DNA of 64,000 bases. Source: Carcharhinus amblyrhynchos (taxonomy: Eukaryota). The position numbers are program-made. Shown piece by piece: positions 15,001-59,300 of this stretch. Position 1 is the first letter of the stretch; each line of letters starts with the position of its first letter. The DNA is taken from the NCBI GenBank assembly GCA_965287045.1, contig OZ336881.1:53134001-53198000 (forward strand), written 5' to 3'.

Positions 15001-18000
15001 GGGATTTTCCAGCTGCACTGGCCCTAAGGCCGGAAAGTCCCGCCTGAGATCAATGGACCTTTGCGTGGTCTGTGTCCTGCCCGCTGCAATTCCCATGGTG
15101 GATGGGACAGGAAAATTCTGCCCTGAAAATGGACTCTTGTTACAGTGATGAGTGACCCAATGTGCCACTGTGGGCAGCACGATGGCAGCAGGGTTAGCAC
15201 TGCTGCCTCACAATGCCAGAGACAAAGATTCAATCCTGACCTCTGTGTGGAGTTTGCACGTTCTCCCTGTTTCTGTGTGGGTTTCCTCCAGGTGCTCCGG
15301 TTTCCTCCCACTGGGAGGAGGGAGGGTATTAGTGGTTAGGGCTGGAGGGATGTTTTATGTTGTATTCTTTACTTCTGGGTCACAGTGTTGGAGCTCTGAA
15401 GAAGGCCTTCCAGTCAGCATTTGCACTTGGCAACCTCTTCACTTCTTCGGGGCTGGCCTGCCCTGACTTGATGGGCAGGATAGATGGATAGGCCATGCTA
15501 AATTGCCCTTTAGTGTCAGGGGGGACTAGCAGGATAGTTATGTGGTTATAGGGATAGGGCCTGGGTGGGCTAGTCGTTGGTGCAGGCTTGATGGGCCAAA
15601 TGGTCTCTTTCTGCACTGCAGGGATTCTATGACCCAACAGCAGGACCAGACGTGAGCAAGATGTCTGCTCAGCTGGGGCGGGGGGGCGGAAGGTGGGGGT
15701 GGGTGGAGCGGTGGGGGTGGATGGCTGACATGTGCAATCACACAGCAGCCAGCCAATTAGATCAGGGAAATCAAGGAGCCCCGCCAATAGTACATTAGGG
15801 GCAGGCATCCTGCTGTTACCTTGAAGGATTGATGTTTTGGGAGCCATATTTTAAAGGGTTGCCAGACACGCATCCATTCTCTATTAGCCCATCAGAGGGG
15901 GGGTGATTTTGAACTGGAGCAGCTGCCACGTCCTGTCCACCTGCCACACTTCAATTCCCAGAGCTGCTGCCACCATCTCTCCCTCGAATGACCATGCCCC
16001 GACCCCCCTTGGATACCTGCCACCCAGGGTCACTGCAACCTTTCAGCCTCCGCTCTCCTGGTCTAATTAAGCTCCACCTACAAGAAAAGCTTGTACTCAC
16101 TCTCAATTTACCATGAAGGCTCCCCTGCCCACCGCACACCTTTGACCAGTTATGAATCTGAGGGGATGTGCTTCTTGTTTGCTGCTGACCTCATCACAAA
16201 AGGTACAATTTAACCACAGCGTGGTCCAGATTTTTCGCTCCAGAGTCTGATGCACAGAGCTATGAGAATTCCCAAATCTGCAAACCAAACCTTTAAAAAT
16301 GGCTTCCTGGATTTCAGGTCGTTAGTTGGAAGGGATGGGCTGGGTTAGAAGTCAGGGCAGGCCAGACCCAAAAAAGTGAAGGGGCTGCTAAGTGCAAATG
16401 CTGAATAGAAGGCTGCTTCAGAGCTCCAACACTGTGACCCAAAAATAAAGAATACAACATAAAACATCGCTCCAGCCCTAACCCCTAATACCTTCCCTCC
16501 CTCCGGCCACATACACCAGCCACACCCCACCCATGACAACCTATGCCACCTCATACCTTGGATTGGGGGCAAGATGGGCCATGGTTTATATGGGTGAGGG
16601 TATGTCCCCCTAACAACCCGTACTGTCCCTTATACACCCATAGCAAGGTTTGCACCCCACACAAACCCTATGGTCTCTCATAACCTCCATGCCAACTTAT
16701 GTTCCTTGACCCACCACACACGTACATGGCTCTTCATAACCCCAGTGCATCTCCAACCAACTCAAATGACTCTTTATAGATCCATACGCCAACTTAGGGC
16801 CAACCCTTTTCCTTTACACCTGCTATGATAACTCATCCAGTATCCACCATGAGCAAATCTCAGGACACATGTAGTGAACAGACAAAAATTAAAGTTACAT
16901 CGTAAACTTTTAATGATCTATTGCAGGCTTCACTATATTGAAAAAAACTTTCATTCATAAAAAAAAATTGTCCCCTTTCTTATTTCTTCAACTAAATAAA
17001 TCTTTACTAAAAAAAAATCACTCAAGGGCACAATCCCTTAGAACAGCAAGCATTGGAATTCCTGGTCCCACATCAAATAATTTATAACCATGTGTAGCTG
17101 TCAATCAAACTGTGAAATGGTAGGCAACCGACTGTGATAATGGATGGTTGTGAATTCAATCATGCAGCACCAAATCAGTTAAGGGAGTAATCCTGCTGAT
17201 GTTAATGCACAGAATGAAATAGCAAGCAATCATTTTTAACACTCCAGATTTTTTTTGCAGGTATTTAAAGGGCAGGACTTTTAAATTCCTTGACAGCTCT
17301 CTTTGACAGGGCCTCATGACAGATCCTCTTAACACTTTTTTCAAGTCCTCTTGACAGCTCCCTTTGATCGGTCCTTGTGATTACTTTTGACAGATCACTT
17401 TGATAGATCCTCGTAAGAAGTGCTTCTGACAATTTTGACAGCTGATTTTGACACGTCTGCTGACAGTTCAATGAGCTTGACAAAAATGAGTTTATGCACT
17501 ATTTACGCACATTTGTGCCTACTTTTAACAATTCCACAGAGCACTTTTTCTCTCCCAAAGGGCAGCTGACCTACCCTAGGTCAGCCACTTGGCCACCACC
17601 AAAGATGTCTTGGGACCAGATCCAAAGAGGTACCTTACCTCACGCTGGCTAGCCAAACAAATTCACAAAGTTCAGACCTGCTTTTACTAGATTTAATCTG
17701 CACAGTTCAGGTTTCACATTCAAAGGCTGTCAAAGTCCTTCAATGAAGGCAGCTGATGACTTAAATGCCCAGCACAGTAAACCACGCACCCAAGAAAATG
17801 GAAAGTGCCAAGTTCAAGTTAGAACTTGCAATGCTTGGGCAGTTCTGCTAGTTTCACCATGCTGGAGGGGGGGCCATGTGGTTCAATACATGACATGACA
17901 ATGCAAAATAGGTTCCTTCCACCCGCCGTTGAGACCCACAGACCGCCGCCAACTTACTTCTCTACTTTCATCTTGCCTCCAGGAAACTGACATATCACTT

Positions 18001-56300: not shown

Positions 56301-59300
56301 CGGGAATGACAGGATGAAATGATTAATACATTCTTTAAATGTAATTAAAACAAAAAAAAACATCTAAATGATCATAGTCAATTTTCAGAATTCTGAGACT
56401 TTGAACTTGTACAGTTAGCGTACATTTTTCTTTCATTGCTGCACAATGTTCAAATTTGATAGCACAGTTATGTTTCTTTTAATTTTTAATGCCATTTTTC
56501 TTCTGGTAAATTAACTCATATCTTCTGTCTCCCTGATCTCTGCAATTCTACTGCTGAGAGGGTGAATGGCCTGCTTCCCCTTGAAGCCAATGGCCCTTGC
56601 AAACGGCCACTAGAAGACATTGGGGGATCAACAGAATGACTTTTAATTTGTTCAAAGGATGCAGGAAATGCTGGCAAGGCTGCTTTCATTACCGATCTTT
56701 AGCTGCCCTGAAAGAACGGTAGTGAGCATCCTCCTTGAAGAGCTGCGGTCTTTGTGGCCATCATTCTATGCATAGGAGGCGAGACGGGGAATTCCAGGTC
56801 ACTGTCACAACGACAATGAACAATGAGATACATCCAAATCAGGAAATGTGAGATTTAGAAGAGAACGTGGAGGTGGCAGTGTTTTCACAACACTGCTGCC
56901 ATTATCCTTCTCGGTGGTAGAGGTCACAGGGGAAGGGAGTGCTGTTGAAAGTCTCTCCTCCCAATTTTCACTCTGCCCCCATACGTCTCCCGGTGGGACA
57001 ACTCTACTCTCTAAACTCTGTGCTGCTGAAATTGGGAAATCAGCAGACAGACTGAGCATCCTTGGCTCTGAGCATGAGCATTGGAATCAATATCCCACCC
57101 AACAAATAATACACTTATACTCATTTCAGCACTGAAAACCAGATTGATGAAAATAAGAACTCCCTGACTGGGGTTTTTTCGGTTTGAGGTTATCTTACAT
57201 TTATGGAACCAAGAAATGGTCATGAGTTGCCATCCAGTATAGCCTTATATCAATAATGAATAGTTTGCATACAGCTACTTACTAATACACTGCTATTTAA
57301 CTTGGTATTTTAGGGTATAACTTCTGAGCAAATAAATGACTTTTGGGACTATACTAAAAGGGCCTGAGCTGAATCTTCATATATTTTGGGGCCATGGCTT
57401 CCCTCAATGACCACCCAGGAAGCCAAGACAAAATTCTTTCCAAGCTAACTAGCTGAAATTAGCAGAGTAGATGTGTGGAATAAATGGAATATGCCTGGGT
57501 GGGATTGTAGTCGGTACAGACTCAATGGGCCAAATGGCCCCCTTCTGTACTATAGGGATTCTATGAAAGCCAAAAGCAACTGTTTGAGAAATAAATGGGT
57601 TAAGGGTTAATTTGGTGAATTAGGTTATTCAGGCCCCTAAAAATCCTTGGACCCCATGTTGTACTCCTGCCATAACTTAAGCAAGAGCGTACCAAAAGGG
57701 GTTCATAATCAGGAAAGAGAAGGGAGAATCTGATAATGTGGAAGAAACCCCACCAGCTAAAGAGCAGGTTATGTACAAACTATCTCAGCGTTCGGAGTTA
57801 TGTAGCCCAGGGAGAGCAGAAAGGAAAGACAGAAAAATCAAAACAAATCAAATATACCCACCCTAAAGAGAAACACATTAAAAGAAAGAACTTGTGCTTC
57901 TATAGCATCATTCATGACCTCAGGACATCCCAAAGCACTTCATAACCAATGATGTTCTTTTGAAGTGTAGACCTTGTGTGTGCAAACACAAGCACTTATT
58001 TCCAATTTTCGGCAGTAGCAGGTGATGGATTTAAAACTAGAAATACACCTTTAAACTCAGGAAAGATATACCTGTCTTTATGTTTTAAAACTGTTGATCA
58101 GCCAATGTCATTGGTGTACGAGCCAGTTTCTTAGTATTTAATCTAATAGTTTTAATAACTCCAAATATTTCCCACTTTTATTGTGAAGTACCTGCATTTT
58201 AAAATCTTAGTTTCATTGTTAAAACCTCATTGATTAAGTTTGCTGCCCCTTGGTCCAGAAATTTAAGAAAATTGTCATTTCTGTATTCTTCACATTGCCA
58301 GGTCTGAACTGCTGCTATGGAAGCCATAATTGATGTACACATAGAAAGCCATAAAAGGGAACACCATCAGTTAATAAAATGTTGTTACAAACACAGTGAA
58401 CTAAAGAGAAAATGACCAAAAAAAGGCACAAAAGATATCTCTTCTTACTTGATTCTTAAGCTAACTCAATAACCTATTCACTCTGACAACTCCAGCCTCT
58501 CATCAGTTCCTCTGTTCTGCACATCTAGCCCCTCTCCCTTTTTCATCTACCTTAAATGTTACTATCTTAAATAATGGTCCATTCAGAAACAGTTTACCCA
58601 ATTCACTGCTTTCCAGTTCCTTATAATTAATTTGCATCTGTGGGAATTTTGAATGTCCCTTCACACTCCAATTTAAAAGGCACAGAGAGAGGAGAAATAA
58701 TCTTGCAGGGAACTCACAAAAAAGGACAAGAATGGGAAAATAGAAATACAAAGGATTCACACATAAAGAGAAGCAGGTAAAAAGATTTTGAACATTGTGT
58801 GAAAGAAGAAATAAATTGAAACAAAGAAATTGCTTTATGTGCTAAGTTATTGTTGTATACTTTTTAAAAGCTATTAGATTAAATATTAAGAAACTGACTC
58901 ATGTGCACCAATGCATAAGTAAACAGTTTTGTGCAGTTTATTACAACTAATTTAAAATCAGGTTACTCACAGATGTTGGACAGATACTGATATAAAGGCA
59001 TAGATGTTCATGGAGTTGCGGAGACCACATGGATCTTCCAAAATGGTGGGCATGGCTGTGATCCAGGTGTCCTGCCCCCATTTAAGACAGAGGCTATTTT
59101 CGTCAGTCGGGGAAATGGAGCAGGGCTTGAAATAAAAAGGCTGGAAGGGCTATTACAACTCAGCACAGAGTTCCAGCAGACCACATTTCCACTGCAGCAA
59201 GGACCTTAATCCAAAATGTGGGAGTTACAAATTTTGAGTAGTTGTAAATGCTCTGGAAGGTGAGATATGGTCTTTAGAACTCTCAAGAAAATAGTTAGCT

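What the first reader, a model, noticed from the sequence alone, without database searches (positions are those of the whole stretch)
15314..58930. Recurrent local copy-paste events: 70-230 bp copied from 0.6-1.3 kb away
Seen: three polarised events (donor 16349 to 15314 inverted, 26390 to 27718 direct, 42409 to 41765 direct) and one unpolarised inverted pair (58087/58864) in 64 kb. None has transposon hallmarks, and junctions show 0-2 bp microhomology with small deletions or duplications. Known: polymerase-theta end joining usually gives shorter inserts templated close to the break, while synthesis-dependent template switching can copy longer tracts. Inference: a frequent kb-range templated repair signature, well preserved in a slowly evolving shark genome. 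I am not aware of it being described for sharks.
Basis: partly seen in the sequence, partly recalled or inferred. Interest (0 to 1): 0.65.

Follow-up and report, generated by a model that had tools for sequence, protein, structure and literature searches.

The report
Local copy-paste scars from DNA repair
Short stretches of DNA in this fish-like vertebrate window were copied from about 1 kb away into old mobile elements, a break-repair scar already described in other vertebrates; only its apparent frequency here might be unusual.

Summary
All four reported pairs are real and far beyond chance (BLAST E 7.6e-53, 1.9e-98, 8.7e-27, 7.1e-9). Each has only its partner in the window.

Three are polarised by "empty" paralogous transposable-element (TE) copies:
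- 158 nt replace 8 nt of a SINE.
- 232 nt of a LINE's endonuclease region sit in the same LINE's reverse-transcriptase region, with a 3-6 nt target duplication.
- 94 nt sit cleanly in another LINE.

None has poly(A), terminal inverted repeats or LTR features.

This matches, feature for feature, the "repair-mediated duplications" (RDs) of Pace et al. 2009 (PMC2671141). The kind, the mechanism, and the length and distance range are therefore already known.

Two things stay open. Shark origin could not be verified. The local density (at least 3 per 64 kb, against 0.08-0.65 per Mb of TE published) is suggestive, but it rests on one window and a different detection method.

I found three further candidate pairs and one palindrome.

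Verdict: real, ordinary in kind, a new member of a known class.

The parts
15172..15311 (+). Left half of the tRNA-derived SINE copy that hosts event 1
   Evidence: Aligns with 6 other SINE copies in the window up to ...CCTCCCAC.
15312..15469 (.). Event 1 acceptor: a 158-nt insert, an inverted copy of 16349-16500
   Evidence: Absent from 6 of 6 paralogous SINE copies. 90.2% identical to the donor over 153 nt. It replaces 8 nt of SINE consensus. No target duplication and no poly(A).
15470..15642 (+). Right half of the same SINE copy
   Evidence: The SINE alignment resumes immediately after the insert.
16349..16500 (.). Event 1 donor
   Evidence: Its only other match in the window is the acceptor.
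26340..29277 (+). 5'-truncated CR1/jockey-like LINE copy that holds both the donor and the acceptor of event 2; followed by (TG)18
   Evidence: tblastn of P0126 (Pfam Exo_endo_phos) hits 26388-26974. The RT-region flanks align with the RT open reading frame at 49763-50185. LINE tail motif at 29219-29249. The ends are approximate.
26390..26620 (+). Event 2 donor: native piece of the LINE endonuclease region
   Evidence: Endonuclease homology runs across its left border: phmmer matches start at query residues 8-15, and the duplicate starts at about residue 26. tblastn.
27718..27949 (+). Event 2 acceptor: a 232-nt direct copy interrupting the LINE's reverse-transcriptase region
   Evidence: 94.4% identical to the donor. 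The paralogous RT open reading frame is uninterrupted across the site. AATTTG appears on both sides. It shares the donor's frameshift.
41439..41764 (+). LINE 3' ORF2 fragment, left of event 3
   Evidence: Aligns with 37294-37617 and with 9058-9401 reverse-complemented.
41765..41858 (+). Event 3 acceptor: an insert of about 94 nt, a direct copy of 42409-42502
   Evidence: Absent from 2 of 2 paralogous LINE copies. 88.7-91.7% identical to the donor. Junctions.
41859..42102 (+). LINE fragment, right of event 3
   Evidence: The LINE alignment resumes at AAAAAAGATTTAAAAGGG.
42409..42502 (+). Event 3 donor, about 300 nt beyond the end of the LINE homology
58104..58165 (.). Event 4, left copy (unpolarised inverted pair)
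   Evidence: K2P distance 0.165.
58846..58920 (.). Event 4, right copy
   Evidence: No target duplication at the outer ends.
46986..47011 (.). Extra candidate: 26-nt exact inverted copy of 48456-48481 (1,470 nt away)
   Evidence: In 0 of 100 shuffles were there 2 matches.
48456..48481 (.). Partner of the 26-nt pair
36115..36290 (.). Extra candidate: older inverted pair, left copy
   Evidence: BLAST core 36126-36222 vs 38393-38297, 83.5%. 77% over 158 aligned nt, K2P 0.27. No third copy in the window.
38235..38400 (.). Older inverted pair, right copy

Best explanation
These are scars of imperfect repair of chromosome breaks in the germline.

Proposed steps:
1. A 3' end at the break primed DNA synthesis on a nearby non-allelic template 0.6-1.5 kb away, on the same or the sister chromatid. 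It needed little or no homology.
2. It copied roughly 25-230 nt.
3. It dissociated and was joined to the other end.

The result is a copy-paste: the donor stays intact and the acceptor gains an insert, with a small deletion (Ev1), a small target duplication (Ev2) or neither (Ev3).

[quoted passage not shown] 2009.

Shown here: the copies, their polarity, the junction structure, the lack of transposition hallmarks, and that Ev2 happened after its LINE had already decayed.

Inferred: that a double-strand break started it, which polymerase and pathway acted, and that it happened in the germline.
For: 1. Polarity. The inserts interrupt TE copies whose paralogues are uninterrupted:
 - Ev1: 6 of 6 SINE paralogues.
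 - Ev3: 2 of 2 LINE paralogues.
 - Ev2: 1 RT paralogue.
2. Junctions: 8-nt deletion (Ev1), 3-6 nt target duplication with 1-2 nt microhomology (Ev2), clean (Ev3). There is no poly(A). The classes MH+Del, MH+TSD and MH-only are all listed for proximal RDs in Table 1 of Pace et al..
3. Size and distance fall in the published range. Inserts here are 158, 232 and 94 nt at 644-1328 nt. The paper reports mean 162, median 147, maximum 619 bp, with 753 of 1,136 donors under 3 kb and an apparent peak near 1,200 bp.
4. The copies are local and low-copy. Each has only its partner in the window, and two-copy pairs are strongly enriched at short range.
5. Timing is consistent. The Ev1 copies differ by K2P 0.099, while the host SINE is 0.24 from its family consensus.
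6. Ev2 donor and acceptor share a frameshift inside the endonuclease region. P0126 residues 104-167 align in frame 3 and residues 177-304 in frame 2; copy B aligns to copy A without a gap across that point. A stop in A (TAG) is TGG in B. The piece was therefore copied from an already broken LINE, which points to a chromosomal event after integration.
7. Substitutions between copies are mostly transitions: 11 of 12 in Ev2 and 9 of 14 in Ev1. This fits neutral decay in place.
Against: - No orthologous empty sites from related species could be examined.
- Genome-wide copy number of donors and acceptors could not be checked, because no vertebrate genome collection was available. Ev1 and Ev3 could therefore in principle be members of an unrecognised dispersed family.
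- Sequence alone cannot separate break repair from replicative template switching.
- Microhomology is weak (0-2 nt at most junctions), so junction evidence is not diagnostic, and three junction pairs allow no statistics.
- Ev2's insert is itself LINE sequence, so the Pace pipeline would have filtered it out as TE-derived. The internal duplication might also have been inherited from a defective source element.
- Ev4, the 26-nt pair and the 36-38 kb pair are unpolarised. They are assigned to this process only by analogy.
Confidence: 0.65

Rival explanations
1. Replicative template switching (fork stalling and template switching, or microhomology-mediated break-induced replication, at small scale). 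A replicating polymerase left its template, copied a stretch 0.6-1.5 kb away within the same fork region in either orientation, and switched back. No two-ended break was involved.
For: - It produces the same copy-paste structure with short or no microhomology, in both orientations (2 direct and 4 inverted pairs here).
- The Ev2 target duplication of 3-6 nt fits re-priming slightly behind the point of departure.
- An adjacent fold-back palindrome at 61155-61236 inside a LINE copy, absent from 4 of 4 aligned paralogous stretches, is the classic product of short-range template switching. I saw PMC5453318 and PMC7954356 only as search listing and abstract start.
Against: - The 8-nt loss at Ev1 is more simply explained by end processing at a break.
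- Pace et al. assign events with these exact properties to break repair, although they also argue from sequence alone.
- Nothing here truly discriminates between the two.
Confidence: 0.22
2. RNA- or reverse-transcriptase-mediated copying. For Ev2, the LINE reverse transcriptase jumped templates on its own RNA during retrotransposition. For Ev1 and Ev3, a break was patched by reverse transcription of a nascent local transcript.
For: - Ev2's donor and acceptor lie in one LINE, 1,328 nt apart and in the same orientation.
- LINE reverse transcriptases are known to switch templates (recalled, not checked here).
- Ev3's donor has an AATAAA just where homology fades, and the acceptor junction is A-rich.
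Against: - Ev2's copies share a frameshift, and the insert itself (232 nt, not a multiple of 3) breaks the RT frame. The template was therefore already a dead copy.
- Ev1's donor is non-SINE flanking DNA in inverted orientation, so the event followed SINE insertion.
- There is no poly(A) tail. The A-run at Ev3 is matched by the LINE's own sequence in 2 of 2 paralogues.
- In Pace et al., 0 of 39 examined proximal events had poly(A/T), against 17 of 29 distant ones.
Confidence: 0.07
3. Independent insertions of members of an unrecognised low-copy mobile-element family that happen to lie near one another.
For: Genome-wide copy number could not be tested. Many TE families of this genome are certainly not recognisable from one window.
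Against: - There are no terminal inverted repeats, LTR features or poly(A).
- Only Ev2 has a target duplication.
- The pairs are 87-94% identical, while every recognisable TE family in the window is 66-82%.
- All lie within 1.5 kb of their only partner.
- In Ev1 the SINE resumes directly after one arm, so the inverted arms do not bound one element.
- In Ev2 the sequence between the repeats is continuous LINE coding sequence.
Confidence: 0.05
4. Chance similarity or assembly artefact.
For: None found.
Against: - E-values range from 7e-9 to 2e-98.
- The 26-mer gave 2 matches in 0 of 100 shuffles.
- The copies differ by 5-15% with a transition bias, which collapsed or duplicated reads would not give.
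- The window holds no N.
Confidence: 0.01

Closest known systems
[quoted passage not shown] I read the abstract, sections 6, 7, 12, 14, 17 and 21, and passages; supplements not seen.
   Same: - Inserts of 50 bp or more interrupt TE copies.
- There is a single donor within 5 kb (apparent peak near 1.2 kb).
- Lengths are around 150 bp.
- Junctions show microhomology, deletion, filler or short target duplication, and no poly(A).
- The donor is left intact.
- The events occurred over a long time span.
   Different: - The taxon: cartilaginous fishes were not among the 10 species surveyed, if this window is indeed from one.
- Apparent local density is at least 47 per Mb here, against 0.08-0.65 per Mb of TE. 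This comes from one window and a different detection method.
- Ev2's insert is TE-derived and would have been filtered out by their pipeline.
[quoted passage not shown] 2004, PNAS, PMC478600). The paper is not held; I know it only from its description in Pace et al. and from recollection.
   Same: Short local duplicates. Pace et al. describe the class as abundant, tandem or in close proximity, sharing many attributes of RDs, and suspected by its authors to arise from imperfect break repair. That the 'nearby' class peaks around 1 kb and arises by insertion of a copy is my recollection.
   Different: Doublets are defined on exact matches of 25-100 bp and are not polarised by TEs. By my recollection they favour the same strand. 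Here 4 of the 6 pairs are inverted, which is too few to test.
Polymerase-theta-mediated end joining with templated insertions (Schimmel et al. 2019, Trends Genet). I saw it only as a reference entry; its content is recalled.
   Same: A polymerase at a break copies nearby sequence in direct or inverted (snap-back) orientation, with short microhomology at the junctions.
   Different: As recalled, typical inserts are tens of nucleotides templated very near the break. Ev1-Ev3 are 94-232 nt from 0.6-1.3 kb away. Only the 26-nt pair is in the usual length range, and its template is 1.47 kb away.
Template switching and end joining at meiotic breaks in the human germline (Hinch et al. 2023, Science, PMC7615360; passages only)
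   Same: A germline source of insertions with template switching. There is an excess of structural variants smaller than about 2 kb, the extent of end resection. This offers a rationale for a kb-range reach of the template.
   Different: The paper describes mainly side-by-side duplications and tandem-repeat contexts at PRDM9 hotspots, with longer microhomologies (median 10-15 bp for variants under 2 kb). It does not describe dispersed copies at about 1 kb.
Short-range replicative template-switch mutations (PMC5453318, PMC7954356; search listing and abstract start only), and filler DNA or patch repair in plants (recalled, not checked)
   Same: Nearby sequence is copied by a polymerase that changes template. 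Inverted products form hairpins, such as the 61155-61236 palindrome.
   Different: As recalled, those events are usually confined to tens or hundreds of nucleotides around the site and often replace sequence rather than insert 100-230 nt.

Membership tests
Repair-mediated duplication (Pace et al. 2009) | An insert of at least 50 bp splits one TE copy into two fragments that are contiguous (within 30 bp) on the family sequence | tested here: met
   Ev1: 158 nt, 8 nt of SINE missing. Ev2: 232 nt, RT paralogue continuous, 3-6 nt duplicated. Ev3: about 94 nt, no loss. In-window paralogues stood in for a curated consensus.
Repair-mediated duplication (Pace et al. 2009) | Donor on the same chromosome, more than 50 bp and less than 5 kb from the acceptor | tested here: met
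   Start-to-start distances are 1032, 1328 and 644 nt.
Repair-mediated duplication (Pace et al. 2009) | The acceptor sequence occurs at only one other place in the genome, and reciprocally | not testable with these tools
   Met within the 64-kb window, where each segment matches only its partner. No vertebrate genome collection was available.
Repair-mediated duplication (Pace et al. 2009) | The insert is not a nested TE, retrogene, 3' transduction or segmental duplication | tested here: inconclusive
   Ev1 and Ev3 have no TE hallmarks and no family in the window. Ev2's insert is LINE endonuclease sequence, so that pipeline would have removed it. It is nevertheless a copy of the same element's own decayed sequence.
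Repair-mediated duplication (Pace et al. 2009) | Breakpoints show microhomology, deletion, filler or short target duplication, and no poly(A/T) tract of 5 or more | tested here: met
   The A-run at Ev3's right junction is accounted for by the LINE's own sequence.
Repair-mediated duplication (Pace et al. 2009) | Empty pre-integration site at the orthologous locus of a related species | not testable with these tools
   No related genome was available. For species without a close relative, the paper itself accepts alignment to the TE consensus.
Polymerase-theta end-joining templated insertion | Short insert (tens of nt) templated close to the break, with microhomology at the junctions (criteria recalled, not taken from a call) | tested here: not met
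   Ev1-Ev3 are 94-232 nt from 0.6-1.3 kb away, with 0-2 nt microhomology. The 26-nt pair meets the length but not the distance.
LTR retrotransposon or miniature terminal-repeat element (considered for the Ev2 direct repeats) | TG...CA repeat termini, target duplication flanking the whole element, and a non-LINE interior (criteria recalled) | tested here: not met
   The repeats start TGTAG and end TTTTGA. The outer flanks do not match. The target duplication flanks copy B alone. The interior is continuous LINE endonuclease-to-RT sequence.
DNA transposon or MITE with terminal inverted repeats (considered for Ev1 and Ev4) | Inverted arms bound one inserted element that is flanked by a target duplication | tested here: not met
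   Ev1: the SINE resumes directly after the left arm, so the arms do not bound one insertion. Ev4: the best-conserved part is internal and the outer flanks show no duplication.
Retroposed copy (target-primed reverse transcription) | 3' poly(A) plus a target duplication | tested here: not met
   None of the three has a poly(A) tail. Only Ev2 has a short duplication.

The most novel reading that the evidence does not exclude
In this genome, proximal-template repair duplications may be one to two orders of magnitude denser, per Mb and per unit of neutral divergence, than the 0.08-0.65 per Mb of TE reported for ten other vertebrates. This kind of insertion would then be a major mutation class relative to point substitution in a slowly evolving, LINE-rich lineage. 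A heavy load of LINE-endonuclease breaks or a different balance of repair pathways could be the cause. The window gives at least 3 polarised events in 64 kb (95% interval 9.7-137 per Mb), plus 3 unpolarised pairs and a palindrome. I do not know how the window was chosen, and my detection is not the published pipeline.
Probability: 0.3. Interest if true: 0.55.

Novelty: new member of a known kind. Interest (0 to 1): 0.3.

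Why it matters
These events are clean, datable examples of how break repair copies nearby DNA. The same process has duplicated exons, splice sites and regulatory elements in primates (Pace et al. abstract).

As a phenomenon it is not new. The same length, distance and junction spectrum was published in 2009, and the short "doublets" in 2004.

What could matter is quantitative. Suppose a genome-wide scan with one pipeline showed that this lineage carries tens of such scars per Mb where mammals carry under one. 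That would give a direct read-out of long-term germline repair behaviour in a large, LINE-rich, slowly evolving genome. It would also speak to the link that Pace et al. drew between LINE activity and RD rate.

Practically, such inserts break TE annotations and can be mistaken for nested TEs or new repeat families.

Tried and rejected
- Translating 5-kb stretches for Pfam failed because of stop codons. I used single open reading frames instead.
- 0 of 10 short ORFs of the Ev2 LINE matched Pfam at E 0.1 or better.
- Of 10 longer ORFs from across the window, 2 matched RVT_1 and 8 matched nothing.
- The word-indexed protein search with the Ev2 donor ORF against longer proteins found nothing.
- The exhaustive phmmer search found only 11 hits, none better than 1.6e-10. 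One of them, P0126, carried Exo_endo_phos above the Pfam cut-off. That was enough to place the donor.
- A global MAFFT alignment of the Ev2 acceptor with its RT paralogue was misled by the insert. I replaced it with local alignments of each flank.
- A translated self-comparison meant to estimate TE content was too noisy, so I dropped it. Only a lower bound stands: 6.6 kb of in-window multi-copy repeats.
- Organism identification failed. The Atlas gave only Eukaryota, with Chordata or Arthropoda. The best RT relatives are unnamed, and the named ones are bird and mollusc CR1/jockey-like proteins. Rfam gave 0 matches and ARAGORN 0 tRNAs.
- Thomas et al. 2004 is not held.
- I considered and rejected LTR, TIR, retroposition, tandem or segmental duplication, chance and misassembly readings (see the membership tests).
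- A weak direct similarity (about 70% over about 105 nt) between 46700-46820 and 48363-48483 lies next to the 26-nt pair. I could not interpret it.
- No structure prediction or complex prediction was relevant, and none was run.

Full report
**What is there**

The window has no N, 41.7% G+C and a CpG observed/expected ratio of 0.295. It is full of decayed retroelements.
- A tRNA-headed SINE of about 300 nt is present in at least 7 copies.
- There are several CR1/jockey-like LINE fragments. Two ORFs match Pfam RVT_1, and the nearest named relatives are annotated "jockey-like".
The protein tools returned unnamed relatives or only phylum-level taxa, and Rfam and ARAGORN found nothing.

| Event | Copies | Orientation | Length | Identity | E-value |
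|---|---|---|---|---|---|
| Ev1 | 15317-15469 / 16500-16349 | inverted | 153 nt | 90.2% | 7.6e-53 |
| Ev2 | 26390-26620 / 27718-27949 | direct | 232 nt | 94.4% | 1.9e-98 |
| Ev3 | 41765-41860 / 42409-42504 | direct | 97 columns | 88.7% | 8.7e-27 |
| Ev4 | 58109-58158 / 58913-58861 | inverted | 53 columns | 86.8% | 7.1e-9 |

Evidence that this exceeds chance:
- In a permissive search, each of the 8 segments has its partner as the only other match better than E 0.01 in the window.
- The window separates into two classes. TE-family pairs are 66-82% identical at any distance (median 15-17 kb). Pairs of 85% or more are all under 1.5 kb apart, plus one zero-distance palindrome.
- At 45 bits or more, 6 of 9 two-copy pairs lie within 2.2 kb, against 3 of 30 family pairs within 2.5 kb (Fisher p 0.0017). 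Pairs separated by under 50 nt and dust-masked sequence were dropped before that count. The three distant two-copy pairs are LINE pieces.
- With gap bins of 1.5 kb, the first bin holds 8 pairs of 50 bits or more and no other bin more than 4. Three of those 8 are ordinary TE pairs.

**Polarity and junctions**

*Ev1.*
- The SINE copy at 15172-15642 reads normally up to ...CCTCCCAC (15311). It then carries 158 nt that none of 6 paralogous copies has, and resumes at 15470.
- Eight nt of SINE consensus are missing.
- There is no target duplication and no poly(A), and microhomology is 0-1 nt.
- Because the SINE resumes directly after the insert, the two inverted arms cannot be the ends of one inserted transposon.

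*Ev3.*
- The LINE fragment at 41439-42102 carries about 94 nt (41765-41858) that are absent from both paralogous copies.
- There is no loss and no duplication. Microhomology is 0 nt at the left junction and up to 3-4 A-rich nt at the right.
- The donor lies about 300 nt beyond the end of the LINE homology.

*Ev2.*
- Both copies lie in one 5'-truncated LINE.
- The donor ORF (26313-26570) found 11 relatives by exhaustive phmmer. Several alignments start upstream of the duplicated piece.
- One relative, P0126, carries Pfam Exo_endo_phos at residues 32-225, and the donor matches its residues 103-162. Copy A is therefore native endonuclease sequence.
- Copy B interrupts the reverse-transcriptase region. 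The flanks of B align to adjacent, slightly overlapping positions of the uninterrupted RT ORF at 49763-50185 (left flank ends at 49971, right flank starts at 49954).
- AATTTG stands on both sides of B. That is a 3-6 nt target duplication, of which TG and A also match the donor.

**Was Ev2 made during retrotransposition?**

Probably not.
- P0126 residues 104-167 align to 26388-26579 in frame 3, and residues 177-304 align to 26591-26974 in frame 2. So there is a frameshift inside the duplicated piece.
- Copy B aligns to copy A without a gap across that point, so it carries the same frameshift.
- A stop in A (TAG) is still TGG in B, so that stop arose after the copying.
- The template was thus an already broken LINE. 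This points to a chromosomal event after integration, although a defective source element cannot be excluded.

**Ages**

K2P distances between copies:
- Ev2: 0.055
- Ev1: 0.099
- Ev3: 0.102
- Ev4: 0.165

Other points:
- Substitutions are mostly transitions: 11 of 12 in Ev2 and 9 of 14 in Ev1.
- The SINE hosting Ev1 is 0.24 from its family consensus, so the insert is much younger than its host, as it must be.
- The events are spread over time, so they are recurrent rather than one burst.

**Further candidates**

- A 26-nt exact inverted pair at 46986-47011 / 48456-48481, 1,470 nt apart with sharp borders. In 0 of 100 shuffles were there 2 matches.
- An older inverted pair of about 160 nt at 36115-36290 / 38235-38400: 83.5% in the BLAST core, K2P 0.27, no third copy.
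- An 82-nt near-perfect palindrome at 61155-61236 inside a LINE copy. The 4 aligned paralogous stretches show no such palindrome.

None of these is polarised.

**What it is**

The structure is copy-paste of 25-230 nt from 0.6-1.5 kb away, in either orientation. The junctions carry a small deletion, a small duplication or nothing, with 0-2 nt of microhomology and no transposition hallmarks.

This is the "repair-mediated duplication" (RD) of Pace, Sen, Batzer and Feschotte 2009 (PMC2671141). I read the abstract, sections 6, 7, 12, 14, 17 and 21, and passages.
- Method: they searched RepeatMasker output for TEs split by 50 bp or more of sequence whose only other copy is elsewhere in the genome.
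- Distance: 824 of 1,136 human cases had the donor within 5 kb, and 753 within 3 kb. There was an apparent peak near 1,200 bp, which the authors warn may partly be an artefact of using TEs as markers.
- Length: proximal inserts had mean 162, median 147 and maximum 619 bp.
- Junctions: all 39 inspected proximal breakpoints showed microhomology, deletion, filler or target duplication (5 combined microhomology with a target duplication). None had poly(A/T).
- Mechanism: they attribute the events to synthesis-dependent strand annealing on an ectopic proximal template.
- Prior work: they note that the "doublets" of Thomas et al. 2004 share these attributes. That paper is not held here.
- Range: passages of Hinch et al. 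2023 (PMC7615360) link a limit of about 2 kb for small germline structural variants to the extent of end resection. That is a plausible reason for the kb-range reach. This link is my inference.

**What stays open**

*Break repair versus replication.* Break repair and replicative template switching cannot be separated from sequence alone. I give the former 0.65 and the latter 0.22.

*Copy number and empty sites.* Genome-wide copy number of the segments and orthologous empty sites could not be checked.

*The rate.*
- Published RD density is 0.62 per Mb of TE in human, 0.19 in zebrafish and 0.08 in chicken.
- Here there are at least 3 in 0.064 Mb.
- If the whole window were TE at human density, the expectation is 0.04 events, with P(3 or more) = 1e-5 and P(2 or more) = 8e-4. 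The exact 95% interval for 3 events is 9.7-137 per Mb.
- This is suggestive, but three cautions apply. I do not know how the window was chosen. My detection is more permissive than their pipeline, which would have dropped Ev2 as TE-derived. One window is one window.

*Supplements.* The supplementary tables of Pace et al. (orientation, TE class, per-event data) were closed, so the orientation ratio could not be compared.

**In print for sharks?**

I made three searches:
- "repair-mediated duplication", "templated insertion" and "shark": 4 papers held at least two of the three terms, none relevant.
- "repair-mediated duplication" alone: 9 papers, none on cartilaginous fishes.
- "shark genome", "double-strand break", "LINE" and "genome stability": 12 listed, none on this process by title or abstract start.

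Passages of the Greenland shark preprint mention gene duplications and double-strand-break genes, but no templated local insertions.

So the process has not, as far as these searches reach, been described in sharks. The process itself has been in print since 2004 and 2009.

**Verdict**

The mechanism class is right. The novelty claim is overstated. This is a new set of members of a known kind. The only potentially interesting open point is a possibly high density in this genome.

Noticed in passing
window 61155-61236: An 82-nt near-perfect palindrome (39-nt arms, 4-nt loop; 92.7% in BLAST) inside the C-terminal coding part of a LINE copy. The 4 aligned paralogous LINE stretches have no palindrome there. 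It looks like a fold-back (snap-back) templated event seeded by a short native inverted motif (GTGGAAA / TTTCCAC).
   Followed up: partly
window 46986-47011 and 48456-48481: A 26-nt exact inverted match 1,470 nt apart with sharp borders and unrelated flanks. A weak direct similarity (about 70% over about 105 nt) between 46700-46820 and 48363-48483 lies next to it. I could not explain this arrangement.
   Followed up: partly
window 36115-36290 and 38235-38400: An older inverted pair of about 160 nt (77-83% identical, two small indels), about 2.1 kb apart and flanking a LINE fragment, with no third copy in the window. It could be an old event of the same kind or the ends of an unrecognised element.
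   Followed up: partly
window 302-624, 1169-1364, 15172-15642, 18337-18619, 19693-19988, 24845-25156, 33517-33792, 57458-57578: A tRNA-headed SINE of about 300 nt, 71-81% identical between copies. By recollection, its central block resembles the conserved core of the V-SINE superfamily of fishes (HE1 in elasmobranchs). This was not checked against any reference.
   Followed up: no
window 29219-29314: The Ev2 LINE ends in the conserved tail motif shared with other LINE and SINE copies (for example 61483-61513), followed directly by a (TG)18 microsatellite.
   Followed up: no
window 45564-45587: An uninterrupted run of about 24 G.
   Followed up: no
window 13618-13715 and 17289-17416: Short imperfect tandem or clustered direct repeats: an 18/37-nt unit in 5.4/2.7 copies, and four 31-nt copies of a CTTGACAG-type motif. 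Their origin is unknown.
   Followed up: no
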